A stretch of 64,000 bases of DNA, from positions 85,625 through 149,624 of the forward strand of contig DHGX01000001.1 of assembly GCA_002402995.1 (NCBI GenBank). Reading direction: 5' to 3'. Below, piece after piece: positions 11,709-63,620 of this stretch. The notes under the pieces were generated by a model, which saw nothing but the letters and a program-made list of their open reading frames with translations, had not been told where the DNA came from and did no database searches. This DNA comes from Patescibacteria group bacterium UBA4787 (lineage in GTDB: Bacteria > Patescibacteriota > Patescibacteriia > UBA2591 > UBA4787). The first letter of the stretch is position 1, and the number at the start of each line of letters is the position of its first letter. The position numbers and the translations under genes were made by a program.

Positions 11709-11755
11709 GAAAAATAATAATGTTGTTCCTTAAAATTATTCAAGGAGAGAATAAA

Positions 11756-13285
11756 ATGAAGAAGAGAATTATTGGGATAGAGAATGAATATCGGATTCAG
11801 GCTCTGCCCGGATTCGATAAAAGCAGATACAAGGTTTATTTTCGGGGATTGAAAATAAGCTTGAATCAGTTTCTATCCAACGGAGCGAGGTTTTATTTGG
11901 ATTTTCCGAGCGAACTGCCGGAGTATTGCACGCCGGAAGTTACGACCATCCGTGAAGTTCTGGCGCATGAACGCGCCGGAGATTATATTGTCTGGGAGAG
12001 CCTGAAAGACATGATGGAAATTTTTAGGCGGAATACCAGTCAGCCAGGTCTCTTTTACAAATATCTGGCAAGTGGTTGTCATGAGAACTATCTTTTTTAT
12101 CTTGATGAAGCTATCAAGTCAACTGCGAATATCTACCCGCAGATGAGCGGCCACATCTTGGCAAGATTGGTGGCTTTTTTGGGGCCCTTCTTGGTCTCTC
12201 GACAGATTTTTTGCGGCGCTGGTTGGTGGTTAACAAATGAAGATGGGCGAAGTTATTTTAATATTTCGCAGCGCGCCCATTTTATGAAGCGTGATTACGG
12301 CGGAGACACGATGCAGAATAGGGCGATTATCAATTCTCGGAATGAATCATTGTGTTCGTCGAGCAATTATTCTCGTCTTCATCTCATTGTTGGCGACTCC
12401 AATATGAGCGATCTCTCTGGTTTTCTCAAGCTCGGCACCACGTCTATCGTTTTAAGGATGATCGAAGCAGGCTTCTTTGATCCACAAGACATTGTTCTAG
12501 TTGATCCGGTTGCGGCTATCGCTGTCATTTCCGATGATTTGAGCTGTAAGGCGACTGTCCAGGCCGGCGGTTTGCATCGTTCGCTTTCAGCCATTGACAT
12601 CCAAGAGTGGTATCTTAATAAAGCTCGTGAATTTTTTGAATGTCGAGAAGTATCCGAAGAGGAGAAGGAGGTTATAAAATATTGGCAGGAAGTTTTGGAC
12701 AAACTGCGCCGAGACCCCATGCTTCTCAAAGAGGAGATCGACTGGGTGATCAAATATAATTTGATTTGCCGTTATGCTGAAAAACACGGTGTTGATCTCG
12801 ATCATTGTTCGGACGAGGAGAGTGAAGCGCTGAGAGTCATTGACACTCATTATCATTCTCTAAATCCGGAGAGAGGTTTGTACCACAAGCTTCTCGGCGC
12901 TGGGAAGATCGCCAAGCTTATTAGTGATAAAGAGGTGGCTTTGGCAATAAAATCTCCACCGACTGATACGCGAGCCAAAGTCCGTGGTGACTTCATTTCT
13001 TTCATCCTGAAAAATCATGCGGATTTGGTTAGGTATTTCATCGTCAATTGGGACGCTATTCGTTATAATTATCGTGCTAATGGATTTTCTAGGCTGATCC
13101 ACGAATTTCAACCTAATCAAGACGATGAATCGGTGAAAGCCTGTGTTTTCAATCTCGGCGATCCGTTTCTTTCAACAGAAACTTGCAACAACTTCCAAGT
13201 ATTGGTTGAAGAGATTGAGTCTCACCAAGAATTTTTCAAATCTATGATACCAACTCCGTCTCCTGACCATCGCGATTATGAATAG
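11756..13285 (+). CDS. pafA: Pup ligase family protein, PafA-like (paralog 2)
   Basis: IGIENEY, NGARFYLDFP.ELPEYCTPE, GCHENYL, RLHLIVGDSNMSD, LKLGTTSIVLRMIE, EIDWVIKYNL, PPTDTRAKVRG. Start chosen at MKKRII with SD AAGGAGAG. The GIENE-to-NGARFY spacing is short, which is PafA-like. Confidence 0.8.
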   Translation: MKKRIIGIENEYRIQALPGFDKSRYKVYFRGLKISLNQFLSNGARFYLDFPSELPEYCTPEVTTIREVLAHERAGDYIVWESLKDMMEIFRRNTSQPGLFYKYLASGCHENYLFYLDEAIKSTANIYPQMSGHILARLVAFLGPFLVSRQIFCGAGWWLTNEDGRSYFNISQRAHFMKRDYGGDTMQNRAIINSRNESLCSSSNYSRLHLIVGDSNMSDLSGFLKLGTTSIVLRMIEAGFFDPQDIVLVDPVAAIAVISDDLSCKATVQAGGLHRSLSAIDIQEWYLNKAREFFECREVSEEEKEVIKYWQEVLDKLRRDPMLLKEEIDWVIKYNLICRYAEKHGVDLDHCSDEESEALRVIDTHYHSLNPERGLYHKLLGAGKIAKLISDKEVALAIKSPPTDTRAKVRGDFISFILKNHADLVRYFIVNWDAIRYNYRANGFSRLIHEFQPNQDDESVKACVFNLGDPFLSTETCNNFQVLVEEIESHQEFFKSMIPTPSPDHRDYE

Positions 13286-13430: not shown

Positions 13431-14900
13431 ATGCAAAAACGCATTTATGGTTTGGAGACTGAGTATAGGTGGTGGAGTTCCTTGCCGGAGAAAAACCCCG
13501 ATAATCCGAGTCAGGTTTTTTCCGGATATCATTTGAATACTATAGTCAATTACTATCCGGGTAATTATTCTGGCTTTTTGCCAAACGGCGCTAGGTTTTA
13601 TGTGGACATGGTTCGGTTTCCAGAGTTCTCAACTCCGGAATGTGCGAGTGTTAGAGATGCCGTGATTTGGGATAAGGCAGGGGAAAAAATAGTTTTCGAT
13701 TGTTTGGGCGGCGCTGTTGTCATCCGAAAAAGAAATTTAGGCAGCAACGGAAAAGTACAGGGTTGCCACGAGAATTATTTGATCGATCGCCAGGTCTTAT
13801 TGAAAGATCGCGACATCTCTCTCGGTCATGTCCATTTGGTCGAACGAGACTTTAATTATTTGGCCGATCGTCTAATTCCTTTTTTGGTGACGCGCCAGGT
13901 TTTCTGCGGCACCGGCGCCATTATGGAGTTCCCACAAATTCAGATAGGGGAAAATCCTTCAACTCAGTGTTTATATCGCTATGTCATTTCACAGCGAGCT
14001 TTCAGAATCGAGCATTTAATCCACGCCGAGACTACTAATAATCGGCCGATCATTAACATGCGCAATGAGCCTCTGTGCGGTGGCGACGAGAGATATTTCC
14101 GCCTGCATCTGATTCTGGGTGATTCTAATCTTTCAGAGTTTTCGACTTTCTTGAAATTGGGTACTACTGGCATAATCTTGCGGATGATTGAGGCTGATTT
14201 TTTAGACACAACCAGTATTGCTCTGCTTGATCCATTAGCAGCTCTTCGGCAAGTCGCGATAGATCCGACTTGCAAAAAAAGGCTAGACTTGGTTGATCAA
14301 CGTCAGTTTTCAGCTATCGACATTCAACAGTGGTATCTCGACAAAGCCAATAAGTTCTTCCAGCGCAACGAAGCTTCAGAAGAGGAAAAAGAAGTGATTG
14401 AGCGTTGGCAAGAAACGTTGGACAAACTGCGCCGAGACCCCATGCTTCTCAAAGAGGAGATCGACTGGGTGATCAAGCTCAACGCTTTGATAAGATATTG
14501 CGAATCTCGCAATTTATCTTTTGACAGCGAAGAAGCAAGGCGTCTTGACGTGGCTTATCATGATCTTGATCCGGATAATTCTCTCTACTTAAAACTTCTT
14601 AAACGTGGTCGCGTCAAGAGGTTAGTTGCCGAGGAAGAGATCGAGAACGCCATTGTTAATCCGCCCGATACGCGCGCCAAAATTAGAGGTTCTGTTATAC
14701 TGGCAATCAACGATTATATTAATCGTTCGTCTATTGGCCGTGATCGCGGCATCTTAATAAACTGGGATTTGGTTTCTGTGTATGCTTCTACGATTCCTCC
14801 TACCACTACTTCTGATAAGATAATAACACTAAGCGATCCTTTCGCGGTGGAAAATTCGGAAATCCAGGCTCTAGTCAACCAATTAAATGCTACACTTTAA
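13431..14900 (+). CDS. pafA: Pup ligase family protein, PafA-like (paralog 3)
   Basis: YGLETEY, NGARFYVD...FPEFSTPEC, GCHENYL, LIPFLVTRQVFCGTGA, RLHLILGDSNLSE, LKLGTTGIILRMIE, EIDWVIKLNAL and PPDTRAKIRG. Confidence 0.8.
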   Translation: MQKRIYGLETEYRWWSSLPEKNPDNPSQVFSGYHLNTIVNYYPGNYSGFLPNGARFYVDMVRFPEFSTPECASVRDAVIWDKAGEKIVFDCLGGAVVIRKRNLGSNGKVQGCHENYLIDRQVLLKDRDISLGHVHLVERDFNYLADRLIPFLVTRQVFCGTGAIMEFPQIQIGENPSTQCLYRYVISQRAFRIEHLIHAETTNNRPIINMRNEPLCGGDERYFRLHLILGDSNLSEFSTFLKLGTTGIILRMIEADFLDTTSIALLDPLAALRQVAIDPTCKKRLDLVDQRQFSAIDIQQWYLDKANKFFQRNEASEEEKEVIERWQETLDKLRRDPMLLKEEIDWVIKLNALIRYCESRNLSFDSEEARRLDVAYHDLDPDNSLYLKLLKRGRVKRLVAEEEIENAIVNPPDTRAKIRGSVILAINDYINRSSIGRDRGILINWDLVSVYASTIPPTTTSDKIITLSDPFAVENSEIQALVNQLNATL

Positions 14901-14934
14901 CCCCTACTATAAAACAGTAGGGGTTTTTATTTTA
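14901..14934 (+). terminator. Rho-independent terminator after paralog 3
   Basis: cccctactataaaacagtagggg followed by TTTTTATTTT. Confidence 0.7.
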
Positions 14935-14953
14935 ATTATCCCCACTTACAACT

Positions 14954-14982
14954 TGATTTTTTCGCCATTTTATATTATAATG
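14954..14982 (+). promoter_or_regulatory. Candidate promoter for nusA (TTGATT ... TATTATAAT)
   Basis: cTTGATTttttcgccattttaTATTATAAT, followed by the palindrome GACTAATtagtgatgATTAGTC (14993-15014). Confidence 0.4.
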
Positions 14983-15041
14983 TATTTAACGTGACTAATT
15001 AGTGATGATTAGTCATTTTTAATTTTCTAAATTTTTGAGAT

Positions 15042-22375: not shown

Positions 22376-22634
22376 AGTTTTGTGATTATTTATTTAAAAT
22401 AATCCTACTTTAATTATATATCCGAATTAGATAATTAGCAAGATTTTGATTTAAATTGTGACGTATTTGTGGGTTATTTCCGAGCGAACGAAAAAAACGC
22501 ATAGTTAATACCTTTTATTTGACTGTCTTAATAATTATACAATCATCAAAAACGATTTGCTTAAAAATCTAATGACATTTATAATAATATCGTAAGTTGA
22601 TTATTCTAAATAATTTTAATTTTAATTTAAATTT

Positions 22635-23735: not shown

Positions 23736-23796
23736 GCTTTAATTTGAGAAGTAAGGGTCATTGACGAAAAAATTATCATTGGTAAAATATTAATGC

Positions 23797-23838
23797 AAAT
23801 AAAATCACGCAGCTTTGATCGAGCCGCGTGATTTTTTA
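23797..23838. terminator. Bidirectional terminator hairpin between convergent genes
   Basis: aatcacgcagctttgatcgagccgcgtgatttttta. Confidence 0.5.
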
Positions 23839-23849
23839 TTGAACAAATT

Positions 23850-24910: not shown

Positions 24911-25900
24911 TTATCTATTATAATCTTGTTTTTCTAATTTTTCAACCAATCTTTTAATACTGTCTTCGTTAGCTTCGTCAACTTCGTCATCAAAAATAAG
25001 TCCTTTTGATTCCAGAAATTTTCCAACTACGAAGATATTATTTGCTCTGATTTGATCTGACATTTTCTTCTCGCCTCTTAAATTTTCTTTTAATTCCACG
25101 GATAGTTTTTTTATCTCATCAAGAGAAATTCTTTTAGAGGCTTGTATAATCAGGCGGCTTATTAACCTTTCGTCTTTTGTTTCTTTGTCGATATGAGTTC
25201 TTATAAATCTTTCTATAAGAGCCTTGGCTAAAATATCTTGGTTAAATTTTTCCGGGCTTATTAATTCTTTTTCTCGTAAGGCAGTGCGATAAGGCTCAAA
25301 AATTATCGGTTTTTCTTGGGGATATTCTCGTTCTACGTTCTGTCCGAATTTTTTAAGATTTATATATGGCAGAGAATGAGATTCGCCCAGAGAAATGAGA
25401 ATATTGATTGCTTCTTTATTTTTTAGGCTGGGCCTATTATTAATAAATCTGGGAAGATATTTTTTCAGAGAATTAATAATATGATGGTCGCGCTTATTCT
25501 GAATATACGCGAAAAGATTCATTTCTTCGTTGATTAATTCTATCGCTTTAGCGAAATTGCCTTTAATGAAATTGTCGAAAACTTTTTGATTATAATTTTG
25601 AAATTTTTCTTCCATTTTTTCTATCTCTTTGTCGCCGCTTGATATATCAGCTAAAAATATTTCTTTGTTTGAGCCAAAAATAAGCTTTACCTCTTCTTTT
25701 TCAAAGTCTTCATAAATAGAGTCGCACCCCCATGTTTCCATAAATTTTTCAGGCGTTAATTCTCCGGCGGAAAGTTTTTTGAGGTCGTTTTTAAAATCCT
25801 CGCTATAGAAAGCAAATTCCGGAATATAAACATCGCAACCTCCAAAGTTTTTTGTAGTGGCGCCACGTTTTCTTTCGAGGTGTGAGGACCTAAGACAAAT
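24911..25900 (-). pseudogene. Paralog family member B, disrupted by a frameshift near 25850 (5' part in another frame, fused to the end of the upstream ORF)
   Basis: The minus-strand reading MKIKFVLGPHTSKENVAPLQKTLEV continues after a 1-nt shift as CDVYIPEFAFYSEDFKNDL...METWGCDSIY. Together these are collinear with the N-terminus of paralog A (MKIEFAFGWHASAKDVKFIQQKFESCDIYIPEMAFYSPEV). Confidence 0.45.
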
Positions 25901-27003
25901 TTAATTTTCATTTTTTCTCTAATCTTCTCTAATTCGTGAGTATCTTCAAGTTCTAAAACTTCAACTAATTCGCGAACCGTTTCGTCGTTAAGTTCGACTC
26001 CTTCTTCGAAAAGCACGCCCTTTGTTTCCAGTAAATCAAAGATTATTTTTATATTTTCTTTCCTGGCTTTTTCGTCTTTTTTATCCTCATAACGAGCCAT
26101 ATTTTCTTTTAATTTTCGGCTCAGGTTCTCAATTTCTTTAATATTTATTCTTTTGTTTATTTCAGAAAGTAGTTTATCTTTAACGCTTTGGTCCTTGATA
26201 AAACCGAACAGGGTGGATAAAAATTCAGTCATTAACGCCCGAGGCAGAAGATCTTTTGATATTTCTTTTTCTGGCATAAATTCTCTTTGCCGTAGCCCTT
26301 GTATTTGCGGTTCAAAGATAAACGGTTTTACCGGAAAGGATCGGCCAACATCATGACTATTTTTTAGTTGAATATAGGCCGGCGTATGGACTGCCCCCAA
26401 AGAAACCAAAACATTGATTTTTGGTTTTTTCTGCAATTTTTTATTTTTGCCAATAATTGCCGGCAAGTCATTTTTTATTTTTTCAGCGATATGTTCGTCT
26501 CGTTTCTTTTCTAAGTCGCTATAAAGATTAATTTCTTGGCTAATTGATTTTATGCCTTCTTCTAAGTCGCCCTCAAGAAATTTATCAAAATTTACCTCTC
26601 GTATTTTTCGGATATTTAGGTATTGATCTAACTCATGTCCATCGTCCGAAACATCAGCTAAGAATATTTCTTTATGCGAGTTGTAGATCATTTTAAGAAT
26701 AGCAAATAAGAAATCAGGAAAATTGCCTCCATGTTTTTCATAAAATTGGCTTGGTGAAAGTTTACCCGCAGAGATATTTTTTAAGTCTTTTTTAACTTCT
26801 GGGCTATAGAAGGCCATTTCCGGAATATAAATATCGCAACTCTCAAATTTTTGTTGAATAAATTTAACGTCTTTGGCAGAGGCATGCCATCCAAATGCAA
26901 ATTCAATTTTCATTTTTTCCCTGATTTCTCGTAAATCTTTTTCCGATAATTCTTTTTTTTTGTTTTGCGGGCGTATTTTCTTTTCTGACGGGGTAGAATT
27001 CAC
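25756..27003 (-). CDS. Hypothetical protein, tandem paralog family member A. The ORF runs without a stop into the start of member B.
   Basis: 415-aa ORF. Its C-terminal 40 aa restart the family N-terminal motif (L.EIREKMKI.F..G.H). Confidence 0.45.
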   Translation of the reverse strand: MNSTPSEKKIRPQNKKKELSEKDLREIREKMKIEFAFGWHASAKDVKFIQQKFESCDIYIPEMAFYSPEVKKDLKNISAGKLSPSQFYEKHGGNFPDFLFAILKMIYNSHKEIFLADVSDDGHELDQYLNIRKIREVNFDKFLEGDLEEGIKSISQEINLYSDLEKKRDEHIAEKIKNDLPAIIGKNKKLQKKPKINVLVSLGAVHTPAYIQLKNSHDVGRSFPVKPFIFEPQIQGLRQREFMPEKEISKDLLPRALMTEFLSTLFGFIKDQSVKDKLLSEINKRINIKEIENLSRKLKENMARYEDKKDEKARKENIKIIFDLLETKGVLFEEGVELNDETVRELVEVLELEDTHELEKIREKMKIKFVLGPHTSKENVAPLQKTLEVAMFIFRNLLSIARILKTTSKNFPPEN

Positions 27004-27063: not shown

Positions 27064-28668
27064 TTATTTAACGGGGTAAACTTTTTTAATATCCACACCT
27101 GTATAATAATATTTTAAAATTTGCAGATAATTAGCGCCTTGTTGGGCGGCGACAATCGCGCTTCTTTGCGGCATGCCTACGCCGTGTCCTAATAATTTTT
27201 TGCCTACGCCCGGCGGATCATTTTTAGCGATTAAATACGGCACTGGAGCCGTGGTCATCCTGACGTCGTAAGAGCTGCGAGTGCGGCCATCGCTTTGCGC
27301 GAAATAATAAGCGACAATCGGGTCGTTATTGTATAGAATGACTTGTCCGCGAGTTTCTTCCGCTGCCCGGCCGATATTCGGCGCGCGTTTTTCAAAATTA
27401 TAGCCGCGGTAAACCTGGTCGGCCTGCGTAGCTTTTAAGGTGAAAATTGGTTCTTCGTCCGGCGTATCGGTGTATTTTGGATTTAGATATCTGAATATCG
27501 CATAGGTGCGAGCCGCGATTTTTTGCGCTTTTAATAGTTCGTAGGGCGATGAATCTGAAACCTCAGACACACTTTTGAGATATTTCTCCATAGGCAATTC
27601 GTTAATTAACCAACATCTTTCGGTATTCGGGTTATATTGAACTTCTATAAGACCGCGAAATTCATTGTCGTTAACTGGCATACCCCAAAAAGGTCCGTTA
27701 TTCCAACTGACAATTTTGAAAATTGTGTTTTCGTCTCTTGGTAAGAATCTTAATAGTTGGTCGGTCATTAATAATCGTTGGCCGTTAGAATTGATAAAAT
27801 ATCTTTTAAGATTAAAATCAAAATTAATTTCTAACAGGTCGCCACTCGTCGCATTTACGAGAAGGTTGTTATTTTTATCTCTGATTTCATAGGGCGCATT
27901 ATCCAAAGTTTGAATTTTAATAGGAAGATATTTTTCTTGATCTTTGGTGTCAGCGAAAAATAAGGCCACTCTAAGAGTTGGTTCGGTGAAACGAAGATCT
28001 TCAGGAATACTTTGATCCGAAGAAATCACCTGCCAGAAATAAGGAGTTGGAGAATTATTAATCTGTTCGTTGGCTATGGGTGGAGGAGGCGGCGACGGAT
28101 TTTTACCGCCATATACATTCATTATAATTTCAATTGTGCCACCGGGAATCGGGTCTTTGCCTGCGAATAGGCTGAGTTTATTGGAATAAGGGCCGTTGAT
28201 GTCAGGCGCTTTAACTTTGAATTTAAAAGTGCCGACGACATTCGGGTCAACATAATACTTAACGCGATAGGCTTCGTTTTGAGACAGCCACTCTTTGGCG
28301 TAAAAATCACTATTCTCGCCATTAATCATTTTCAAACTGACAGGCTTGTCGATATTTTTGCCGAGCCATTTTTGGGCGCCGATATTTTTAAATTTAACGA
28401 TAAAAGTCGCTTCTTCGCCAGCTTTTAATTTGAGCGGTTCAATCGGATTCTGCTCTACGCGCAAGGCCTTATAGGCTGGTTTGGCGACTTGTTCGGTTGT
28501 AGCGGTTGCCGCGTATGCATAATTCACCCCGAATTTATTTTGCAAAAAATTTCCCAATAAACTAAGCAACATAGAAACGATCACCACAATAATTATGGCG
28601 ATAAATAAGGCGAGCCAAACTTCTTTACTGGAATGACTTTTCTTGTTTTTTAATTCTTTTTCTTCCAT
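27064..28668 (-). CDS. SpoIID/LytB-domain protein (membrane anchored)
   Basis: N-terminal TM and a C-terminal SpoIID/LytB signature (YYFAQSDGRTRS and GHGVGMPQRSA). Confidence 0.8.
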   Translation of the reverse strand: MEEKELKNKKSHSSKEVWLALFIAIIIVVIVSMLLSLLGNFLQNKFGVNYAYAATATTEQVAKPAYKALRVEQNPIEPLKLKAGEEATFIVKFKNIGAQKWLGKNIDKPVSLKMINGENSDFYAKEWLSQNEAYRVKYYVDPNVVGTFKFKVKAPDINGPYSNKLSLFAGKDPIPGGTIEIIMNVYGGKNPSPPPPPIANEQINNSPTPYFWQVISSDQSIPEDLRFTEPTLRVALFFADTKDQEKYLPIKIQTLDNAPYEIRDKNNNLLVNATSGDLLEINFDFNLKRYFINSNGQRLLMTDQLLRFLPRDENTIFKIVSWNNGPFWGMPVNDNEFRGLIEVQYNPNTERCWLINELPMEKYLKSVSEVSDSSPYELLKAQKIAARTYAIFRYLNPKYTDTPDEEPIFTLKATQADQVYRGYNFEKRAPNIGRAAEETRGQVILYNNDPIVAYYFAQSDGRTRSSYDVRMTTAPVPYLIAKNDPPGVGKKLLGHGVGMPQRSAIVAAQQGANYLQILKYYYTGVDIKKVYPVK

Positions 28669-28695
28669 GTTTAAAATTATTTTAGCTGAAAATTA

Positions 28696-28841
28696 TGACT
28701 CAGTCAACCCCTCACATGGGAACGATATGTTTTGTCTTAGTTAGGGAAAGACATTTTTATTTTAAATAGATTTTTGGTTCTCGTTTCATGTATTAAAAGA
28801 AAAATATATTAAATTCCTTGATTGTTCCCATGTGAGGGGTT
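28696..28841. repeat. Perfect 20-bp inverted repeat pair (TCAACCCCTCACATGGGAAC / GTTCCCATGTGAGGGGTTGA) separated by about 106 bp
   Basis: Arms at 28696-28715 and 28822-28841. The second arm abuts the TTGACA of the downstream promoter. Confidence 0.7.
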
Positions 28842-28844
28842 GAT

Positions 28845-28874
28845 TTGACAAAAGGCGATTTTTGTGACTAAATA
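28845..28874 (+). promoter_or_regulatory. Promoter (TTGACAAAAG...TAAATA) for the 28935 gene
   Basis: tTTGACAaaaggcgatttttgtgacTAAATA; AAGTTCTTTAAAA leader at about 28885. Confidence 0.45.
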
Positions 28875-28934: not shown

Positions 28935-29654
28935 ATGAGCAAGACAATCTTCTCGGTCGGCTTTGTACTGGTGTTTTTGGTAGGCCTTAGTTTCGCCCAA
29001 GCCGACCTTGATTCTACTACAACGGTTATCTCAGATCCTTCTTTAATTATGGACGACACAGAGAAGGAAATAGCCCATCGGAAATATCAGAGCTGGGACG
29101 AGATCTTTCGTTTAGGAAAGGCCCAGAAATCCTGTCGCGATTCTGGCGTTAATATCCCCGAGGAATATATTGCCTATACTCGCTACAAGATTGAGCAACT
29201 TTTCAGCGACTCAAGCAACTTTGTTTTCAACGAGAAGGAACTCAATTATATTGTTCAGCAAAAGTTGAGTGAGAAAGCAGGCAATCCGTCAGCCGAAAGC
29301 GTGAAAGTTTTTCTAAGAGACGGCCTAATCAAGGCGAGCGGGACGTTGCTGTCGCCTTTTCGCGCTTCAGTAGTTGTTATGATCAAATCAACGATCGATG
29401 ACAGCACCCACGACGCGAGACTAAAGGTAGTTTCTATGAAAATAAAACGCAAGAGCTTCTTCTCTAAATTCCTTCCTGTACCTCGTCCCATCGTCAATAA
29501 TTTAGCCAACCGCGACCTGAAGAAAATACTTGCTTTTATGCGCGAATATGGCTATCAGATGAAAATCGTCATAACGCCATCAGCTATTCGATTGCTCGGC
29601 CACAAGATAGAGCCGACAATATCGACAACGGCTAGTTTCAAAAACAAGAGGTGA
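28935..29654 (+). CDS. Hypothetical secreted protein
   Basis: Signal peptide MSKTIFSVGFVLVFLVGLSFAQA and SD AGGAGCC; no recognised domain. Confidence 0.4.
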   Translation: MSKTIFSVGFVLVFLVGLSFAQADLDSTTTVISDPSLIMDDTEKEIAHRKYQSWDEIFRLGKAQKSCRDSGVNIPEEYIAYTRYKIEQLFSDSSNFVFNEKELNYIVQQKLSEKAGNPSAESVKVFLRDGLIKASGTLLSPFRASVVVMIKSTIDDSTHDARLKVVSMKIKRKSFFSKFLPVPRPIVNNLANRDLKKILAFMREYGYQMKIVITPSAIRLLGHKIEPTISTTASFKNKR

Positions 29655-29677: not shown

Positions 29678-29927
29678 GAATATTTAGAAAAAATATGGTA
29701 TACTAATGGAATAAAGGATATTAAGCCCTGTGTTTGTTTCACTCGCTCCAAAAAGCAAATGAATCTGTTTTCCCGCCTGCCAATGCCTTGAGCCGACCTA
29801 AATAAAAACTTTTTATTAAAGATGTCATATTGCTGCCATAAACAAAATAGTTCACGACAACACGGCATAAGGCGAATGGCGGGCAGGTCTCTCGCTTGTC
29901 CACAAATAAAATAACGAATTCTACAAA

Positions 29928-31339: not shown

Positions 31340-31588
31340 CCCCGTAATACAACTTCGATGAGACCGACTCTGGTCGGCCCAAAAATCATGGAAAATTTTG
31401 TTAGTTAGATTGATAAACCCCGTTAGAGATTTAAAATTAAATATATTTAGGAGATTGACAAGAGCCGTGAGGCGGCTTCGCCTTAGTTGGGCGACAAAAG
31501 ATAGTCTCGGCTGAATCTCTAACGGGGTAAACATAAATATTTATTAGGACATAAAAATTATTAAAAATATCGAAGATGATATACGGGG
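31340..31588 (+). mobile_element. Miniature inverted-repeat element, family B copy 1 (about 249 bp, includes a nested hairpin module)
   Basis: Imperfect TIRs CCCCGTAATACAACTTCGAT ... ATCGAAGATGATATACGGGG. A second copy lies at 35835-35975. The internal arms AACCCCGTTAGAGATT / AATCTCTAACGGGGT (31416-31431 and 31514-31527) enclose a TTGACA box. Confidence 0.55.
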
Positions 31589-31652
31589 TTTGCCAAAATC
31601 ATTTTATTTCTATAGAATAATTGAGTATTTTAAAATTAAAAGTCTTTTTAAT

Positions 31653-35834: not shown

Positions 35835-35975
35835 CCCCGTAATACAACTTCGATGGGGCCGACGATAGTCGGCCCAGAACCCCCCCAGGAGAATTTTATT
35901 AGTTAGATTTATAAATATAAATAATATTTACCAAGATCCAAAAAATTATTAAAAATATCGAAGATGATATACGGG
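35835..35975 (+). mobile_element. Miniature inverted-repeat element, family B copy 2 (about 141 bp)
   Basis: Same termini as 31340-31588 (CCCCGTAATACAACTTCGATGGGGCCGAC...ATCGAAGATGATATACGGGG), lacking the nested module. Confidence 0.55.
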
Positions 35976-35977
35976 GT

Positions 35978-36427
35978 ATGTCAATTATTTATTTTAGGAT
36001 TAAAAGATGGTCTGCCATCTTATTAGTTCTTATTTTTTTTATTTTTGACCGCGCGCTAAAAGAAATTTATTTTTATTTCAACCATCATAAAAATTTATTT
36101 TATTTTTTTGATAGCGGATTATTTTTAAATAGAAATTTTGTTTTTGGAATGATCGAACCATCCTGTTTGATGATGATCGTCCTTGCTGTATTTTTTATTT
36201 TTTTAATTTGGCAGGCGATTAATTTTTGGCAGAAAAATTCTTGGGTTAACTTTTTTGCTTTTAGTTTAATTATCGCCGGAGCCTTCTCAAATATTTTGGA
36301 CAGATTTTTTTACGAAGCCGTGGTAGATTATTGGCAGATGCGGAATTTAAATATTTTTAATTTTTCCGATATAATGATTATCGGCGGTTTAATTATTTTT
36401 ATAATTAATTTTTTAAAGAAAAAATAA
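35978..36427 (+). CDS. lspA: Lipoprotein signal peptidase II
   Basis: LspA motifs (IIAGAFSNILDRFFYEAVVDY and FNFSDIMIIGG). The start is uncertain because the annotated ATG lies at the edge of the family-B element. Confidence 0.65.
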   Translation: MSIIYFRIKRWSAILLVLIFFIFDRALKEIYFYFNHHKNLFYFFDSGLFLNRNFVFGMIEPSCLMMIVLAVFFIFLIWQAINFWQKNSWVNFFAFSLIIAGAFSNILDRFFYEAVVDYWQMRNLNIFNFSDIMIIGGLIIFIINFLKKK

Positions 36428-36536
36428 GAGGTATTAAACCCTGTGTTATCTGCGCTCGCCCCGCCTTAACTCGCGTCGGCGAGGCAGCCGGGAAAAGAAA
36501 ATTCATTTGCTTTTCACTCACTCGCTTAATAATAAT
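36428..36536 (+). repeat. Intergenic repeat family 1 copy (AGGTATTAAACCCTGTGTT ... CACTCGCTTAATAATAA)
   Basis: Shares both end modules and the internal GAAAAG.AAAT.CATTTGCTTTTC palindrome with copies at 5157, 5821, 22471, 29714, 39861, 40434 and 58147. Confidence 0.6.
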
Positions 36537-39793: not shown

Positions 39794-39860
39794 AGCCAAT
39801 CGACTGATTGGCTGATTCATTTTCTTCGGGGTTGACAAAAATATTTTATTTTGTTATTAT
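39794..39860 (+). promoter_or_regulatory. Palindromic operator-like site plus promoter
   Basis: AGCCAATCGACTGATTGGCT (39794-39813), a perfect 8-3-8 palindrome, lies 18 bp upstream of TTGACA (39832-39837), a 17-nt spacer and TATTAT. Confidence 0.5.
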
Positions 39861-39950
39861 TTTATTATCAAGCGAGTGAGAGAAGAACAAATCTGTTTGT
39901 TCTTCCGAGCGAGCACGGATAACACAGGGTTAATACCCTTTATTTGCCTT
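39861..39950 (-). repeat. Intergenic repeat family 1 copy (reverse orientation)
   Basis: TTATTATCAAGCGAGTGAG ... AACACAGGGTTAATACCC. Confidence 0.6.
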
Positions 39951-40422: not shown

Positions 40423-40433
40423 TCAGCGCGTTT

Positions 40434-40632
40434 TATTATCAAGCGAGCGAGAGAAACGAGAAACGAAGTTTTTTATTTCCGACCACGCCCGACTTCGCCT
40501 TGAGTGATTTTTAAAAACAGTCTTTCTAAACTAATATTTGCGGGGGGGTTCGGTACTTCGCTATTACTGCGCGGAACGGCGAACTCAAGGCGGGCGGGGC
40601 GAGCGCAGATAACACAGGGTTAATATCCTTTA
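40434..40632 (-). repeat. Intergenic repeat family 1 copy (long variant, reverse orientation)
   Basis: TTATTATCAAGCGAGCGAG ... GGCGGGCGGGGCGAGCGCAGATAACACAGGGTTAATATCC. The GC-rich core matches the 36440-36480 copy in reverse complement. Confidence 0.6.
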
Positions 40633-40782
40633 TGCCGCGTCAGAATTTATATTTTGGCGCGGTTTTCATTTAAATTAAATCAGTCCTGGTTTGCGAGATT
40701 TATAATCTTGTTTTTATCATTTAAATCGGCTAAAATATAAGTCTAAGATGTTCAGCTTATCTAACAGTGTAAATATGAATTT

Positions 40783-41047: not shown

Positions 41048-41186
41048 CCAGGTAGTGAAAATTCGATAGTGCTTTTCGCTTCAGCTTACTATCTGGTTCT
41101 ATCATCAATAAAATATTGATTTTTACTACTAGTGCATTTATATTAATAACTGCACTTTTAAGAAACATCGAATTTCTACTACCTGG
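41048..41186 (+). mobile_element. 139-bp miniature inverted-repeat element, family C copy 1
   Basis: The TIRs ATGCCAGGTAGTGAAAATTCGATAG ... CATCGAATTTCTACTACCTGGTAT nearly match the second copy at 46587-46725 (same 139 bp length). The element ends 1 nt before the ATG at 41188. Confidence 0.65.
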
Positions 41187-41187
41187 T

Positions 41188-42333
41188 ATGAAAACTTCGC
41201 GCCCCAAAATTTATAGTTTTTTCACCTCGAAACTTACGATCAGTGTTTTTTTTATTATCGTCGTTGTCCTTAATATTTTGGTGGCAGTGTCTATCCGTTA
41301 TTCGATTAAAGCGCAAAAATCAAGCGAAGGAGAAAATGAATTTCTTAAACGAAAAATTAATTTCGATCAACCTTTTTATGTTAAAGGAATTTATCTGTCT
41401 TCCTGGACCGCCAGCGAACCTGTTTTGTTAAATAGGCTAATTGATTTAGCAAAAAAGAATAAACTTAACGCTGTAATTATTGATTTAAAAGACTCGCACG
41501 GAATAGTGGCTTATGAAAGTTCGGTGGAAACGGTAAAAAATTTAAAAACCAGCGAACCGCGTATAAAAAATCTAAAGAGCATATTAGAGAATCTGCATAA
41601 AGAAAATTTATATGCTATCGCGCGTTTGTCGGTTTTTCAGGATCCGACTTTAGCTTCCAGTAATCCTTCGGTGGCTTTGAAAAACAAAAATACAGGAAAG
41701 ATTTGGGCCGATAATAAAGGCTTGTTTTGGGTTGATCCGGCCTCTTTAGAGGTTTGGGATTATAATATAGCTCTGGCGAAAGAAGCTTGGCTGATGGGTT
41801 TTGATGAAATTAATTTTGATTACATTCGTTTTCCCTCAGACGGCAATATTTCCAATATTAGTTATCCTATTTGGGATGGCCTGGCGCCCAAAGAGGAGAT
41901 TATTCGGCGTTTTGCCGAGTACCAAAATATCGTTCTAAGTCCGCTTAACATCACGCGTTCCGCAGATTTGTTTGGTTTAACCTTTTGGCGGGATGACGAC
42001 TTGAACATCGGGCAAAATTTATCGTTATTAATTCCTTATTTCAATTATATTTGCCCTATGGTTTATCCTTCTCATTTTCCGCCCGGATTTGAGAATTTCA
42101 CTAATCCGGCCGAACATCCTTACGAGATTGTTTTCCGCAGTTTAGCCAAAGCTAAGGAAAAATTTATTGGCCAAAACGCTTTGCCGAGACCGTGGCTACA
42201 GGCTTTTGATTTGGGCGCGGAATATGACTCGGCTAAATTAGCTAAACAAATTAAGGCTGTGGAAGACGGCAACGGTTACGGTTGGCTATTATGGAACGCC
42301 CAAAATAAATACAATGATATTTTACCCTATTAA
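41188..42333 (+). CDS. TIM-barrel glycoside-hydrolase-like protein (GHL/DUF4015-type), membrane anchored
   Basis: Start moved to MKTSRPKIY immediately after the family-C element. N-terminal TM anchor, then GIYLSSWTA...NAVIIDLKD...AIARLSVFQD...GFDEINFDYIRFP segments typical of the putative glycoside hydrolase TIM-barrel family. Confidence 0.5.
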   Translation: MKTSRPKIYSFFTSKLTISVFFIIVVVLNILVAVSIRYSIKAQKSSEGENEFLKRKINFDQPFYVKGIYLSSWTASEPVLLNRLIDLAKKNKLNAVIIDLKDSHGIVAYESSVETVKNLKTSEPRIKNLKSILENLHKENLYAIARLSVFQDPTLASSNPSVALKNKNTGKIWADNKGLFWVDPASLEVWDYNIALAKEAWLMGFDEINFDYIRFPSDGNISNISYPIWDGLAPKEEIIRRFAEYQNIVLSPLNITRSADLFGLTFWRDDDLNIGQNLSLLIPYFNYICPMVYPSHFPPGFENFTNPAEHPYEIVFRSLAKAKEKFIGQNALPRPWLQAFDLGAEYDSAKLAKQIKAVEDGNGYGWLLWNAQNKYNDILPY

Positions 42334-46586: not shown

Positions 46587-46725
46587 CCAGGTAGTGAAAA
46601 TTCGATAGTGCTTTTTGCTTCGGCTCATTACTTGGTTTCGTTGTTAACAAAATAACTAATCTTTGCTTCCAGCGCACTCCTTAATATAATCGCACTTCAA
46701 GAAGCATCGAATTTCTACTACCTGG
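46587..46725 (+). mobile_element. 139-bp miniature inverted-repeat element, family C copy 2
   Basis: Same TIRs as 41048-41186; ends 1 nt before the trmD ATG. Confidence 0.65.
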
Positions 46726-46726
46726 T

Positions 46727-47455
46727 ATGATTAAGTTCGATATTTTGACCATATTCCCCAAAGTTTTCGAAGGATATTTTTCTACTTCTATCATAAATCG
46801 GGCGAAGACAAAGAGACTCGTTAAAATTAGTATTCATAATCTGCGCGATTATACTTTTGATCGGCGCAAGACCATCGATGACCGGCCTTACGGCGGCGGC
46901 GCGGGTATGATTATGAAAGTCGAGCCGATTTATTTGGTTCTTAAAAAATTAACGCACAATTTTAGGAAAGACTCTAAACGAAAAATTATTCTGTTGCGGC
47001 CGTCTAAAAAGATTTTTAATCAAAATATAGCTCGCTCTTATAAAAACTTGAAACATATTATTTTGATTTGCGGTCACTATGAAGGCGTTGATGAACGGGT
47101 TGAACATTTTATTGACGAGTCTTTATCAGTCGGGAATTTCGTATTAACCGGCGGAGAATTGGCAGCGATGATTGTAGTCGATGCGATTACGAGGTTAGTC
47201 GACGGTTCAATTAAAAAAGAATCGCTGGGTGAAGAGTCATTCGATGATGAGGGTTGTCTCAAAATAGAATATCCTCAGTATACTCGTCCGGGAATTTTGA
47301 CAATTAAAGATAAATTCGGTAAAATAAAAGTATTGAAAGCGCCAAGAGTGTTGCTTTCAGGAAGTCATCAAAAGATCAGAGAATGGCGCCATGGCCAAGT
47401 AGCAGAAAAAGTGGCCAGAGCACTCCAAAAAAACAATAGGGGCAAAGATATTTAA
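46727..47455 (+). CDS. trmD: tRNA (guanine37-N1)-methyltransferase
   Basis: MIKFDILTIFPKVFEGYF N-terminus and the GGGAGM SPOUT-knot motif. Confidence 0.9.
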   Translation: MIKFDILTIFPKVFEGYFSTSIINRAKTKRLVKISIHNLRDYTFDRRKTIDDRPYGGGAGMIMKVEPIYLVLKKLTHNFRKDSKRKIILLRPSKKIFNQNIARSYKNLKHIILICGHYEGVDERVEHFIDESLSVGNFVLTGGELAAMIVVDAITRLVDGSIKKESLGEESFDDEGCLKIEYPQYTRPGILTIKDKFGKIKVLKAPRVLLSGSHQKIREWRHGQVAEKVARALQKNNRGKDI

Positions 47456-50273: not shown

Positions 50274-50363
50274 AAATAAATATGTATTTTGTTAATGGGC
50301 ATTTAGTCCACCAGCTGGTGGAGAACCCTAGTCCTCTTCCGCCTGCCCCGTTAAATTTCTGAA

Positions 50364-50434
50364 TGGGCGACCAAGGAATCGAACCCTGTTCTCTTCCGTG
50401 TAAAGGAAATGTTTTACCATTAAACTAGTCGCCC
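50364..50434 (-). tRNA. tRNA-Val (anticodon TAC)
   Basis: The reverse complement GGGCGACTAGTTTAATGGTAAAACATTTCCTTTACACGGAAGAGAACAGGGTTCGATTCCTTGGTCGCCCA. Confidence 0.85.
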
Positions 50435-50501
50435 AAGATTAATTTAACGGGGTGGATAAAGGAAGCTTAATCCCTTTATAATACCCATTATTTTTTTAAA
50501 G

Positions 50502-50595: not shown

Positions 50596-50670
50596 ATATT
50601 CGTCATGCTTCGTGAAATTGGTTCGCTACGGAATCAGACAAAAAGATTTTTGTCTGTCCCCCTGTTTGCC
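50596..50670 (-). repeat. Intergenic repeat family 2 copy
   Basis: The reverse complement ATAATTGGCAAACAGGGGGACAGACAAAAATCTTTTTGTCTGATTCCGTAGCGAACCAATTTCACGAAGCATGACGA matches copies at 55683 and 63536. Confidence 0.6.
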
Positions 50671-55559: not shown

Positions 55560-55890
55560 TTTTTGGCAAGTTGATACCGAGAAGATTTTTAAAATTTAAT
55601 ATTTCGGCGCTATCCACACTTTATCCCCATTTTATCCTCGAAACTCCAAAAAATTTCGTTTCAATTATAAACGATCGATGTTATAATTGGCGAACGGAGG
55701 AACAGACAATTTTTTGTCTAATTCTGTAGCGAGCCAATTTCACAGAGCGAAGCAAGTATAATTGGCAGCAGGGATAAAACAAAAATTTTCCGCCAGCTGG
55801 CGGATTGATTTTATCCGAAGCGCTCAAATTTCAGAAGCGAGGCGACTATATTTTTTTTGTTGATCAAGCTAATAAAAATAAAATAAATTT
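55560..55890. promoter_or_regulatory. Candidate chromosomal origin (oriC) region upstream of dnaA
   Basis: Consecutive DnaA-box-like 9-mers cTATCCACA (55611), TTATCCCCA (55621) and TTATCCTCG (55632), and TTATCCGAA (55810). The flank is AT-rich and dnaA is immediately downstream. The region also contains repeat family 2 copies (55683-55760, and a degenerate one at 55757-55850). Confidence 0.5.
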
Positions 55891-57293: not shown

Positions 57294-58130
57294 ATGTATA
57301 TTATTAAGGCCGATGGAAAACGTGAACGTTTTAATGCGAGAAAAATTCTGCGCACTTGTTTGCGTGCCGGCGCTGATCGAATATCGGCCAACGAGGTAAC
57401 GAATCGCATTAACCAAGAGGTGCGTGAAGGAATGACCACGCGCGAGATTTTACAACGCACGCTTTCTTATTTGAACGCAATTAATCCTGCGGTGGCTGCT
57501 AAATATTCTTTAAAAGATTCTATGTTCAAATTGGGTCCGGCTGGTTTCCAGTTCGAACAATTTTTATTAAGGATTTTTCAGGAATACGGATACCGAACAA
57601 AACATTCTCAAATTATTCAAGGCGCTTGCGTTAAACACGAAATAGATATTGTATTATTCTCAAAAAATATTTATTCAACAGTGGAATGCAAATATCATAA
57701 CTCTCCCGGCGTTTATACCGGCATTAAAGATGTACTTTATGTTTGGGCCAGATTTTTAGACCTGCGCGACGGTTACAAGAAAGGACTGTGCGCTAATTTT
57801 AAAGAAGCGTGGCTGGCTTCTAATACCAAGTTTTCCGACTGGACGATTCAATATGCTGAGTGTAAAAAAATGAAGCTTTTGGGTTGGAATTGGCCGGTCG
57901 AAGGAGGCCTGGAGAAATTAATTGAAAACAAAAAACTTTATCCAATCACAATTATCCCTAATTTGGAACCCGATCTTCGGGCAAGGTTCGTTAAAGCAAA
58001 TATTATATTGTGTCGTGACTTGGTTTCTTATGATTCAACTCGCCTATTATCTGTGGCCAAAGTTAAAGCCAGTCGTCTAAAAGATATAATTTCGTTGGCC
58101 GATCAGATATTGAATCATTCTAATTATTAA
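57294..58130 (+). CDS. ATP-cone domain protein with C-terminal PD-(D/E)xK nuclease-like domain
   Basis: N-terminal IIKADGKRERFNARKILRTCLRAG is ATP-cone-like; the C-terminal HEIDIVLF...VECKYH looks like a restriction-endonuclease-like core. Confidence 0.45.
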   Translation: MYIIKADGKRERFNARKILRTCLRAGADRISANEVTNRINQEVREGMTTREILQRTLSYLNAINPAVAAKYSLKDSMFKLGPAGFQFEQFLLRIFQEYGYRTKHSQIIQGACVKHEIDIVLFSKNIYSTVECKYHNSPGVYTGIKDVLYVWARFLDLRDGYKKGLCANFKEAWLASNTKFSDWTIQYAECKKMKLLGWNWPVEGGLEKLIENKKLYPITIIPNLEPDLRARFVKANIILCRDLVSYDSTRLLSVAKVKASRLKDIISLADQILNHSNY

Positions 58131-58146
58131 AAATTTGAATAAATTT

Positions 58147-58222
58147 ATTTGTGAGCAAGCGAGGGAAAAGCAAATGAATTTGCTTTTCCGAGCGAGCGAA
58201 ACAAACACAGGGTTAATAGTTT
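58147..58222 (-). repeat. Intergenic repeat family 1 copy (reverse orientation) with perfect internal palindrome
   Basis: GAGCAAGCGAGGGAAAAGCAAATGAATTTGCTTTTCCGAGCGAGCGAAACAAACACAGGGTTAATAG. Confidence 0.6.
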
Positions 58223-63523: not shown

Positions 63524-63535
63524 ATTTATAGATTT

Positions 63536-63620
63536 TATAATTGGCGAGCGGAGGAATAGACAAATTTTTTTGTCTGATTCCGTAGCGAGTCAATTTCACG
63601 CGCAAAGCAAGTATATTCTA
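63536..63620 (+). repeat. Intergenic repeat family 2 copy upstream of valS
   Basis: ATAATTGGCGAGCGGAGGAATAGACAAATTTTTTTGTCTGATTCCGTAGCGAGTCAATTTCACGCGCAAAGCAAGTATA. Confidence 0.6.

What the first reader, a model, noticed from the sequence alone, without database searches (positions are those of the whole stretch)
28696..28874. Perfect 20-bp inverted repeat with a 106-bp spacer overlapping the promoter of a secreted-protein gene
TCAACCCCTCACATGGGAAC (28696-28715) and its exact reverse complement (28822-28841) flank an AT-rich 106-bp segment. The distal arm runs straight into tgatTTGACA of the downstream promoter. A 20/20 match is very unlikely by chance in an intergenic region of 260 bp. It could form a large cruciform or RNA stem, bind an invertase/recombinase site pair, or be the remains of a small element's TIRs.
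Basis: seen in the sequence. Interest (0 to 1): 0.5.

Follow-up and report, generated by a model that had tools for sequence, protein, structure and literature searches.

The report
Small mobile-element hairpin between two promoters
The perfect 20-base inverted repeat is real and most likely marks the two ends of a roughly 140-base non-coding mobile-element insertion (a MITE) sitting between two back-to-back promoters in a Patescibacteria genome that holds several such elements, so it is a fairly ordinary feature rather than a proven genetic switch.

Summary
The repeat exists, but the coordinates are shifted. TCAACCCCTCACATGGGAAC lies at 28704-28723 and its exact reverse complement at 28824-28843, with a 100-nt spacer of 22% GC. 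About 6e-5 such pairs are expected by chance in the window.

It is a discrete ~140-bp unit between the divergent promoters of a SpoIID-domain gene and a signal-peptide gene.
- One sister species (88% SpoIID identity, same gene order) has only TCAA-8 nt-TTGA at this site and keeps both promoters.
- Another sister species has the unit with three arm substitutions, all compensated. Its spacer fits better in the opposite orientation.
- An unrelated metagenome locus carries a unit with the same 12-nt termini, whose TTGA end forms a 12/12 consensus promoter.

The window also holds other ~110-250-nt elements with CC/CCCC termini and 4-bp target duplications. Their empty sites are verified in the sister genome.

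Best reading: the arms are terminal inverted repeats of a MITE-like element, kept perfect by DNA-level concerted evolution. Its TTGA end supplies part of the SpoIID -35 box. No recombinase, no internal promoter and no mixed orientation were seen, so a phase switch is unlikely. F1 itself shows no clean target duplication, and its copy number could not be measured.

The parts
28704..28723 (+). Left arm (terminal inverted repeat) TCAACCCCTCACATGGGAAC. The outer 12 nt are shared with all family members found.
28824..28843 (+). Right arm GTTCCCATGTGAGGGGTTGA, the exact reverse complement of the left arm
28724..28823 (.). 100-nt AT-rich interior (22% GC). It has no ORF over 33 aa, no Rfam match and no promoter-like site. 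Its subterminal motifs GATATGTT and CCTTGATT are the only parts recognisably shared with the sister-species copy.
28704..28843 (.). The whole 140-bp MITE-like unit, called F1 here. Its core CCCC...GGGG is 28708-28839 (132 bp), and that core is what the sister genome L052 lacks.
28679..28707 (-). Promoter-like site of the SpoIID-domain gene, TTGACT-17-TAAAAT. The first four bases of the -35 box (TTGA) are the outer end of the left arm.
   Evidence: the same arrangement in L055 and TTGACG-17-TAAAAT in L052, which lacks the element
28845..28874 (+). Promoter-like site of the 239-aa signal-peptide gene, TTGACA-18-TAAATA, starting 1 nt after the right arm. It is conserved in the genome without the element as TTGACA-17-TAAAAT.
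27064..28668 (-). Flanking gene: a 534-aa membrane-anchored SpoIID-domain protein
28935..29654 (+). Flanking gene: a 239-aa protein with an N-terminal signal-peptide-like segment and no Pfam family. Homologues were found only in the two sister species.

Best explanation
The two arms are the terminal inverted repeats of a ~140-bp non-coding, non-autonomous transposable element (a MITE-like element, here called F1). It lies between the back-to-back divergent promoters of the SpoIID-domain gene and the 239-aa signal-peptide gene. Shown: it is a discrete unit that is present, absent or differently oriented in sister genomes, and the same termini recur at an unrelated locus. Shown: the same genome contains other small elements with CC/CCCC termini and 4-bp target-site duplications, with verified empty sites. 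Inferred: F1 was inserted by, or descends from an element moved by, a transposase encoded elsewhere. The CCC-type termini and 4-bp AT-rich duplications of the sister families resemble the IS1380/piggyBac superfamily. Inferred: the arms stay perfectly complementary through a DNA-level process. That could be hairpin-templated (quasipalindrome) correction, gene conversion between arms or between copies, or recent transposition. Selection on an RNA is less likely, because all 20-23 bp are Watson-Crick in every copy while the inner arm sequence differs between copies. Inferred effect: the outer TTGA of the element supplies the first four bases of the SpoIID -35 box. The insertion also moves the two -35 boxes from 13 nt apart to 137 nt apart. 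This probably uncouples two promoters that would otherwise compete, and does not act as a switch.
For: 1. Discrete unit. Sister species L052/L053 (SpoIID 88% aa, same gene order) has a 146-nt intergenic region reading ...TTTTGTCAAA-TCAA-AAAACATC-TTGA-CGAAGTCATAATTTTCAGCTAAAAT. The window has the 132-bp CCCC...GGGG where L052 has 8 nt, and the flanks are 77-80% identical.
2. Both promoters exist without the element: TTGACA-17-TAAAAT and TTGACG-17-TAAAAT.
3. The same 12-nt termini bound a 139-bp unit with a perfect 23-nt IR at a non-orthologous locus, L051 9284-9422. Its TTGA end plus CA forms TTGACA-16-TATAAT, a 12/12 match.
4. Hainich sister species (L007, L050, L055): same site, arms TCAACCCCTCACTTGGAAAT, three substitutions all mirrored in the other arm. 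Across the three copies, 8 of the 20 arm pairs carry two-sided changes and none is broken.
5. Other elements in the window: F2 at 41048-41186 and 46587-46725 (flanks TATG/TATG); F3 at 31340-31588 (TTTG) and 35835-35976 (TATG); F6 at 31418-31527 (TAAA), nested inside F3.
6. Empty sites in L052 for both F3 copies. Conversely, L052 has an F6 copy at 14908-15017 with duplication TTGA, and the window has the empty site CATTGACGAA.
7. Indirect sign of more than one copy. L007 continues past the arm into sequence unrelated to L055, L050 stops exactly at the branch point 2 nt past the arm, and Logan contigs from several runs end inside F1 and inside another repeat at 29739.
8. No ORF over 33 aa, no Rfam match and no plasmid or phage match.
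9. piggyBac TIRs begin with CCC and make 4-bp duplications of TTAA, with variants TAAA, TCAA and TATG. IS1380 is the prokaryotic relative (PMC10813416).
Against: - F1 has no clean target-site duplication. Its immediate flanks TCAA/TTGA are inverted rather than direct and appear to belong to the element. The next four bases are TCAG|TTTG in the window, TTAG|TTTG in L055 and GGGG|CAAA in L051.
- Only one F1 copy occurs in the 64-kb window. The whole genome could not be searched.
- No transposase was found in the window.
- The L052 site keeps TCAA and TTGA plus 8 nt resembling the window's subterminal GATATGTTTT. It may therefore be an internal-deletion remnant rather than a true empty site.
- If the element is old and vertically inherited, a selfish-element model alone does not explain why the arms stay perfect. 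That needs the inferred correction or conversion process.
- The outer 12 nt are invariant, where about 3.7 changes are expected at the neutral divergence of 31%. This shows constraint, which could also reflect a host function.
Confidence: 0.68

Rival explanations
1. Invertible DNA switch (inverton). A site-specific recombinase acts on the two arms and flips the 100-bp segment, changing expression of one or both flanking genes (phase variation).
For: The spacer of the Hainich sister species aligns with the window's spacer better when inverted relative to the flanking genes. Global score is 20.5 (z 3.2-3.4, p 0.001-0.003) inverted, against 10.0 (z 1.2-1.4, p about 0.1) in the same orientation. 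The subterminal motifs GATATGTT and CCTTGATT swap sides. Perfect arms with mirrored substitutions fit recurrent recombination between arms. Assemblies tend to break at the element.
Against: None of about 50 ORFs across the 64-kb window hits a recombinase or invertase family. Both promoter-like sites lie outside the arms, and the scan finds none inside the spacer on either strand. Flipping would therefore not change what faces either gene out to about -57. All junction-bearing contigs of the window species from four sequencing runs show one orientation. All three assemblies of the Hainich species, from two wells, show the other. The Logan break points (28737 and 28709) are not at the arm-spacer junction, where an inversion mixture would branch a k=31 graph. 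The orientation signal is weak once 20 nt are trimmed from each end.
Confidence: 0.08
2. Host-selected DNA or RNA hairpin. The long stem itself is functional, for example as a structured RNA or as a cruciform/insulator between divergent promoters, and selection for pairing explains the compensatory changes.
For: The stem is very stable on either strand: -53.7 and -46.0 kcal/mol, z about -7. Eight stem positions show two-sided changes with no broken pair across three copies. The outer 12 nt are invariant.
Against: The two mapped promoter-like sites point away from the element, so no identified transcript contains both arms. In L051 a terminator lies just upstream. There are no G-U pairs in any of the 20-bp core stems, and stability is equal on both strands, which fits DNA-level identity better than RNA selection. 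No Rfam match even at E<=10 apart from chance miRNA hits. A sister species does without the element and keeps both promoters. From general knowledge, cruciform extrusion with a 100-nt loop is very unfavourable in duplex DNA.
Confidence: 0.1
3. Paired operator sites. Each arm is a binding site for a regulator placed at about -36 to -55 of each divergent promoter, so the inverted repeat simply reflects two promoters sharing one upstream motif.
For: Each arm abuts or overlaps a -35 hexamer in the same register on its own strand. In L051 the arm end is part of a perfect consensus promoter. Arm centres are 116-120 bp apart, about 11 helical turns.
Against: The 12-mer GTGAGGGGTTGA is not found at other promoters in the window; only the two copies match within 1 mismatch. 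In L051 the second arm faces a terminator and has no -10 box. The sister species L052 has both promoters and no arms. The inner 8-11 nt of the arms differ completely between copies yet always match within a copy, which a shared protein site would not predict.
Confidence: 0.05

Closest known systems
Bacterial MITEs with outward promoter elements, e.g. Correia elements of Neisseria (from my own knowledge, not tested here)
   Same: About 100-160 bp, non-coding, with terminal inverted repeats of about 20-26 bp. They are intergenic, often next to promoters, and their ends can contribute -35/-10 boxes to neighbouring genes. They show presence/absence differences between related genomes.
   Different: Correia elements are present in hundreds of copies and duplicate a TA target. 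F1 shows one copy in 64 kb and no clean duplication. Its termini and interior are unrelated in sequence, and its arms are perfect and co-vary between species.
IS1380/piggyBac superfamily transposons and their MITE derivatives
   Same: piggyBac TIRs begin with CCC (motifs such as CCCTC) and make 4-bp duplications of TTAA or variants TAAA, TCAA and TATG (PMC10813416). The window's F2, F3 and F6 elements begin with CC/CCCC and are flanked by TATG, TTTG, TAAA and TTGA. The F1 core begins CCCCTCAC.
   Different: No transposase of this or any other family was found in the window, so the link rests on end and target features only. F1's own 4-nt flanks (TCAA/TTGA) are inverted rather than direct.
Invertons (invertible promoters flanked by inverted repeats, as in Bacteroides or the E. 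coli fim switch) (from my own knowledge)
   Same: Short inverted repeats flank a roughly 100-300-bp segment in a promoter region. The orientation appears to differ between two sister species.
   Different: There is no promoter inside the segment, no recombinase nearby, and no mixed orientation in any assembly.
Quasipalindrome template-switch correction (a mutational mechanism described in E. coli and phage T4; from my own knowledge)
   Same: It would turn a change in one arm into the complementary change in the other and could extend the palindrome outward. This matches the mirrored substitutions and the inverted TCAA/TTGA flanks.
   Different: It is a mechanism, not an element family. Its operation here is inferred from the pattern only.

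Membership tests
MITE (miniature inverted-repeat transposable element) | Small size (tens to a few hundred bp) and no coding capacity | tested here: met
   140 bp. The only ORFs are 21-33 aa and run across the element borders.
MITE | Terminal inverted repeats | tested here: met
   20/20 perfect arms (23 nt at 96%) in the window, 20-23 nt perfect in the Hainich copies and 23 nt perfect in L051.
MITE | Direct target-site duplication flanking the TIRs | tested here: inconclusive
   The immediate flanks TCAA/TTGA are inverted rather than direct. The next 4 nt are TCAG|TTTG (window), TTAG|TTTG (L055) and GGGG|CAAA (L051). The sister families F2, F3 and F6 do show perfect 4-bp duplications.
MITE | Presence/absence at orthologous sites in related genomes | tested here: met
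   L052/L053 lack the 132-bp core in an otherwise syntenic region with 77-80% identical flanks. Caveat: the site retains TCAA-8 nt-TTGA and may be a deletion remnant.
MITE | Several dispersed copies per genome | tested here: inconclusive
   One copy in the 64-kb window. A second junction in the Hainich MAG and a copy at an unrelated locus in another metagenome suggest dispersal. The whole genome was not available, and the 20-mer was absent from the three public collections.
MITE | A cognate autonomous element or transposase with matching ends | not testable with these tools
   None of the roughly 50 window ORFs scanned against Pfam hits a transposase family.
Inverton / phase-variable invertible segment | Both orientations co-exist within a population | tested here: not met
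   This was tested at contig level only. Five Logan contigs from four runs plus the window all show one orientation. Three Hainich assemblies all show the other. Reads could not be examined.
Inverton / phase-variable invertible segment | A site-specific recombinase (invertase) gene nearby | tested here: not met
   No recombinase or integrase domain in any ORF scanned across the window.
Inverton / phase-variable invertible segment | An orientation-dependent promoter or other regulatory element inside the segment | tested here: not met
   The consensus scan finds no promoter-like site inside 28724-28823 on either strand. Both promoter-like sites are outside the arms.
Described structured RNA family (Rfam) | A match to a covariance model at or near the gathering score | tested here: not met
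   No hit at gathering thresholds. At E<=10 there are only chance hits to plant miRNA models, far below threshold.
IS1380/piggyBac-type element (as the source of the MITE) | Ends beginning with CC(C) plus a 4-bp AT-rich target duplication | tested here: inconclusive
   Met for F2, F3 and F6. For F1 the CCCC is preceded by TCAA, which behaves as part of the element, and no duplication is seen. The family features are taken from PMC10813416.

The most novel reading that the evidence does not exclude
F1 is not just a dead insertion. It would be a hairpin element kept perfect by ongoing arm-to-arm recombination or template switching, whose loop flips without a dedicated nearby invertase. It would belong to a Patescibacteria-specific set of piggyBac/IS1380-like MITEs that preferentially land in -35 hexamers (TTGA, TTTG) and start codons (TATG) and regenerate them through their 4-bp duplication, so rewiring promoters in a minimal genome.
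Probability: 0.12. Interest if true: 0.6.

Novelty: new member of a known kind. Interest (0 to 1): 0.33.

Why it matters
Patescibacteria (CPR) genomes are small and are usually described as poor in mobile DNA. My literature searches found nothing on MITEs or invertons in this group. This window shows that one such genome carries several families of small TIR elements that have moved since the split from sister species at about 87% nucleotide identity. Several sit exactly at -35 boxes or start codons, so they must influence how neighbouring genes are expressed. For the finding itself the practical message is modest. The striking perfect repeat is explained by an insertion element and need not be treated as a regulatory switch. 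It is still a clean natural example of concerted evolution of hairpin arms.

Tried and rejected
- The exact 20-mer was searched in genome contigs, viral contigs and metagenome contigs with no match, so the source species is not in those collections.
- The two-terminus pattern found nothing in viral contigs.
- blastn of the element against plasmids and phages found no match.
- Rfam at gathering and permissive thresholds gave nothing meaningful.
- General promoter motif hypothesis: rejected, because the 12-mer occurs nowhere else in the window.
- tRNA or tmRNA: none at this site.
- Integron attC site: the ends GTCAAC...GTTGA loosely resemble the R''/R' cores. I rejected this from general knowledge because the stem is perfect (no extrahelical bases), there is no cassette array and no integrase.
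- ECF-sigma -35 box (GGAAC in the window's arm): rejected because that part of the arm is not conserved in the other copies.
- Homology of the F1 interior to the F2, F3 or F6 interiors: not significant.
- Interior similarity between the window and Hainich copies: weak. It is significant only for the whole spacer in inverted orientation. A simulation shows it corresponds to about 40% divergence, slightly beyond the neutral 31%. I could not separate in-situ inversion from independent insertion or copy replacement.
- More distant SpoIID loci (L008-L010, L054): no such repeat upstream.
- The source record's long contigs were not returned by the look-up of encoding contigs, so the genome-wide copy number could not be measured.

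Full report
**1. The observation**

The 20-mer TCAACCCCTCACATGGGAAC is at 28704-28723 and its exact reverse complement at 28824-28843. The spacer is 100 nt, not 106. With one mismatch the arms extend to 23 nt. The arms are 55% GC and the spacer 22%. No other copy exists in the window even with three mismatches, and no shuffle produced one. About 6e-5 such pairs are expected by chance in 64 kb. Independent Logan contigs contain the same sequence, so it is not an assembly artefact.

**2. Setting**

The repeat lies in the 266-nt region between two divergent genes. One is a 534-aa SpoIID-domain protein (27064-28668, minus strand). The other is a 239-aa protein with a signal-peptide-like N-terminus and no Pfam family (28935-29654, plus strand).

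Each arm ends at a -35-like hexamer.
- On the minus strand, the arm's TTGA plus CT gives TTGACT-17-TAAAAT.
- On the plus strand, TTGACA-18-TAAATA begins one base after the arm.

Both promoters point away from the repeat. The organism is a Patescibacteria (CPR) bacterium, judged from the titles of the closest public relatives.

**3. Comparative evidence at the same locus**

Only two close relatives exist in the collections, and all three genomes are about equidistant: about 88% aa and 86-87% nt identity in SpoIID, with 31-34% differences at four-fold sites.

(a) L052/L053 are two independent assemblies with the same gene order on both sides. Their intergenic region is only 146 nt and reads TTTTGTCAAA-TCAA-AAAACATC-TTGA-CGAAGTCATAATTTTCAGCTAAAAT. 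The flanks align at 77-80% identity. The window has the 132-bp CCCC...GGGG where L052 has 8 nt. Both promoters are present there, with -35 boxes 13 nt apart, against 137 nt in the window.

(b) The Hainich species (L007, L050, L055) comes from three assemblies and two wells. It has the unit at the same site with arms TCAACCCCTCACTTGGAAAT. That is three substitutions relative to the window, each mirrored in the other arm. L055 shows that the gene order is the same as in the window.

**4. The same termini elsewhere**

I scanned the metagenome collection for TCAACCCCTCAC-N(100-130)-GTGAGGGGTTGA. Besides a Hainich contig, this found L051 9284-9422. This is a 139-bp unit with perfect 23-nt arms, TCAACCCCTCACCTTTTAGACAG, in an unrelated context. 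An intrinsic terminator lies on one side. On the other, TTGA+CA forms TTGACA-16-TATAAT, a 12/12 consensus match.

Aligning the three versions gives 20 stem pairs. Twelve are invariant, eight carry two-sided changes and none is broken.

**5. The genome carries other small TIR elements that have clearly moved**

A repeat scan of the window and a targeted scan for CC...GG-bounded inverted repeats (shuffles gave 0-3 hits) found several elements.
- F2: 41048-41186 and 46587-46725, flanked by TATG/TATG.
- F3: 31340-31588 flanked by TTTG/TTTG, and 35835-35976 flanked by TATG/TATG.
- F6: 31418-31527 flanked by TAAA/TAAA, nested inside the first F3 copy.

The sister genome L052 has uninterrupted sequence at both F3 sites: AATCATTATGTCAATT and GGCATTTGCCAAAATC. 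Conversely, L052 has an F6 copy (14908-15017, flanked by TTGA/TTGA) where the window reads CATTGACGAA. These are therefore real insertions with 4-bp target duplications, and they have been active since the species split.

Ends starting with CCC plus 4-bp duplications (TTAA and variants TAAA, TCAA, TATG) are features of piggyBac, whose prokaryotic relative is IS1380 (PMC10813416). This is a lead for the mobilising enzyme, not a test. None of the roughly 50 window ORFs scanned hits a transposase or recombinase family.

**6. What F1 most likely is**

F1 has the size, the lack of coding capacity, perfect TIRs, a CCCC-type core and a presence/absence pattern. It also sits among verified MITEs. All of this points to a MITE-like element.

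Three features do not fit cleanly.
- There is no clean duplication. TCAA/TTGA are inverted and are shared by every junction seen, including L007's alternative one, so they behave as part of the element. The next four bases are only similar: TCAG|TTTG and TTAG|TTTG.
- Only one copy is seen in 64 kb.
- The L052 site keeps TCAA and TTGA plus GATGTTTT (in window orientation), which resembles the window's subterminal GATATGTTTT. L052 may therefore be an internal-deletion remnant rather than an empty site.

Indirect signs of further copies also exist. L007 runs from the arm into 54 nt unrelated to the L055 flank or anything else fetched. L050 stops exactly at that branch point. Logan contigs from three or four runs end at 28737/28709 inside F1, and at 29739 inside another dispersed repeat.

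**7. Orientation and concerted evolution**

The Hainich spacer aligns to the window's spacer better when inverted relative to the flanking genes. Global score is 20.5 (z 3.2-3.4, p 0.001-0.003) inverted, against 10.0 (z 1.2-1.4) in the same orientation.

This signal comes largely from the subterminal motifs and fades when 20 nt are trimmed from each end. A simulation shows the score corresponds to about 40% divergence. That is a little beyond the neutral 31%, for which z of 3.6-10.8 is expected. Three scenarios remain open: an in-situ inversion, replacement by another copy, or an independent insertion.

In every scenario the arms are perfect within each copy while their inner 8-11 nt differ between copies. 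There is not a single G-T pair in the 20-bp cores. This points to a DNA-level cause: recent transposition, conversion between arms or copies, or hairpin-templated correction. An RNA under selection is less likely. The outer 12 nt are invariant where about 3.7 changes would be expected, so they are constrained, as a transposase-binding end would be.

**8. Rivals**

- Inverton. Unlikely, because there is no recombinase, no promoter inside the segment, and a single orientation in all assemblies of each species. Read-level data could still overturn this.
- Functional RNA. Unlikely, because no identified promoter transcribes both arms and no Rfam family matches.
- Shared operator. Unlikely, because the motif is absent from other promoters and the sister species keeps both promoters without it.

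**9. Likely consequence**

The element's TTGA end stands in for the first four bases of the SpoIID -35 box: TTGACT in the window, against TTGACG in the genome without the element. The insertion also separates two promoters whose -35 boxes were 13 nt apart. This is inference, and expression was not measured.

**10. Verdict**

It is best explained as the terminal inverted repeats of a small insertion element, which is a new member of a known kind. Interest is modest. The broader pattern deserves a separate look: several young MITE families in a CPR genome, landing in -35 boxes and start codons.

Noticed in passing
window 35835-35976, 41048-41186, 46587-46725: Three small TIR elements (F3 copy 2 and F2 copies 1 and 2) are flanked by the duplication TATG. 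The right-hand ATG of that duplication is the start codon of the downstream gene (signal peptidase II at 35978, a DUF4015 protein in frame at 41188, trmD at 46727). The insertions therefore sit exactly at start codons and displace the original upstream region by about 140 nt. In L052 the dksA-like gene and the signal peptidase gene are only 5 nt apart. How these genes are now transcribed and translated is open. The 37-nt right end of F3 is 100% identical between its two copies and contains a -10-like TAAAAAT.
   Followed up: partly
window 31340-31588 and 31418-31527: An F6 element (110 bp, perfect 14-15-nt TIR CCCCGTTAGAGATT, duplication TAAA) is nested inside an F3 element. The TTTG duplication of that F3 overlaps the -35 box of the AspRS promoter-like site TTGCCA-17-TAGAAT (31590-31618).
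   Followed up: yes
window 29700-29915: A ~190-nt insertion lies between the promoter-like region and the start of the Germane-domain gene, relative to L052 and L055. It belongs to a dispersed repeat family (core TATTAACCCTGTGTT...GCGAGCG) with further copies near 22484, 36437-36530, 39860-39943, 40431-40633 and 58124-58218. The copy at 36437 is conserved at the same site in L052. Logan contigs end at 29739 inside it. There is no Rfam match.
   Followed up: partly
window 55674-55745, 63528-63600, 50611-50649, and also 39866-39925, 58160-58200: A recurrent ~60-70-nt motif sits just downstream of TATAAT-like boxes. It is a hairpin flanked on both sides by GCGAGCG-like words, for example GGCGAGCGGAGGAATAGACAAATTTTTTTGTCTGATTCCGTAGCGAG. 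One copy is upstream of dnaA. It could be a leader RNA or a protein-binding motif, and no Rfam family matched.
   Followed up: no
window 50346-50452: A perfect 12-nt inverted repeat, CCCCGTTAAATT / AATTTAACGGGG, brackets the tRNA-Val gene (50363-50435, minus strand). It has the same first 8 nt as the F6 TIR. It is either a leader-trailer pairing of the pre-tRNA or a MITE-like unit carrying a tRNA.
   Followed up: no
window 23757-23840: The target of the L052 F6 insertion is the TTGA of TTGACG-16-TAAAAT. About 25 nt downstream lies a terminator-like hairpin (AAAATCACGCAGCTTTGATCGAGCCGCGTGATTTTTT), in a convergent intergenic region. This may be a very small transcription unit.
   Followed up: no
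window 25735-25851 vs 26736-26852, and 12575-12753 vs 14298-14476: There are internal or paralogous duplications. The 415-aa ORF 25756-27003 contains a ~1-kb tandem duplication at 70% identity. The genes at 11720-13285 and 13431-14900 (the latter a Pup-ligase family protein) share a segment at 77% identity. Pup-ligase and proteasome-ATPase-like genes in a Patescibacteria genome are unusual.
   Followed up: no
L007 1-54: The MAG contig JBBTUI010000032.1 continues past the element into 54 nt that match neither the syntenic flank seen in L055 nor anything else fetched. This is either a chimeric join across a repeated element or a second genomic copy of F1.
   Followed up: partly
L051 9160-9283 and 9423-9650: Next to the L051 copy there is a perfect 19-bp-stem hairpin (GTTGTATCCTAAATACTAC-AATT-GTAGTATTTAGGATACAAC) and an intrinsic terminator on one side. 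On the other side a GC-rich leader of about 200 nt follows the consensus promoter. The last ~1.4 kb of the contig is much more GC-rich than the rest.
   Followed up: no
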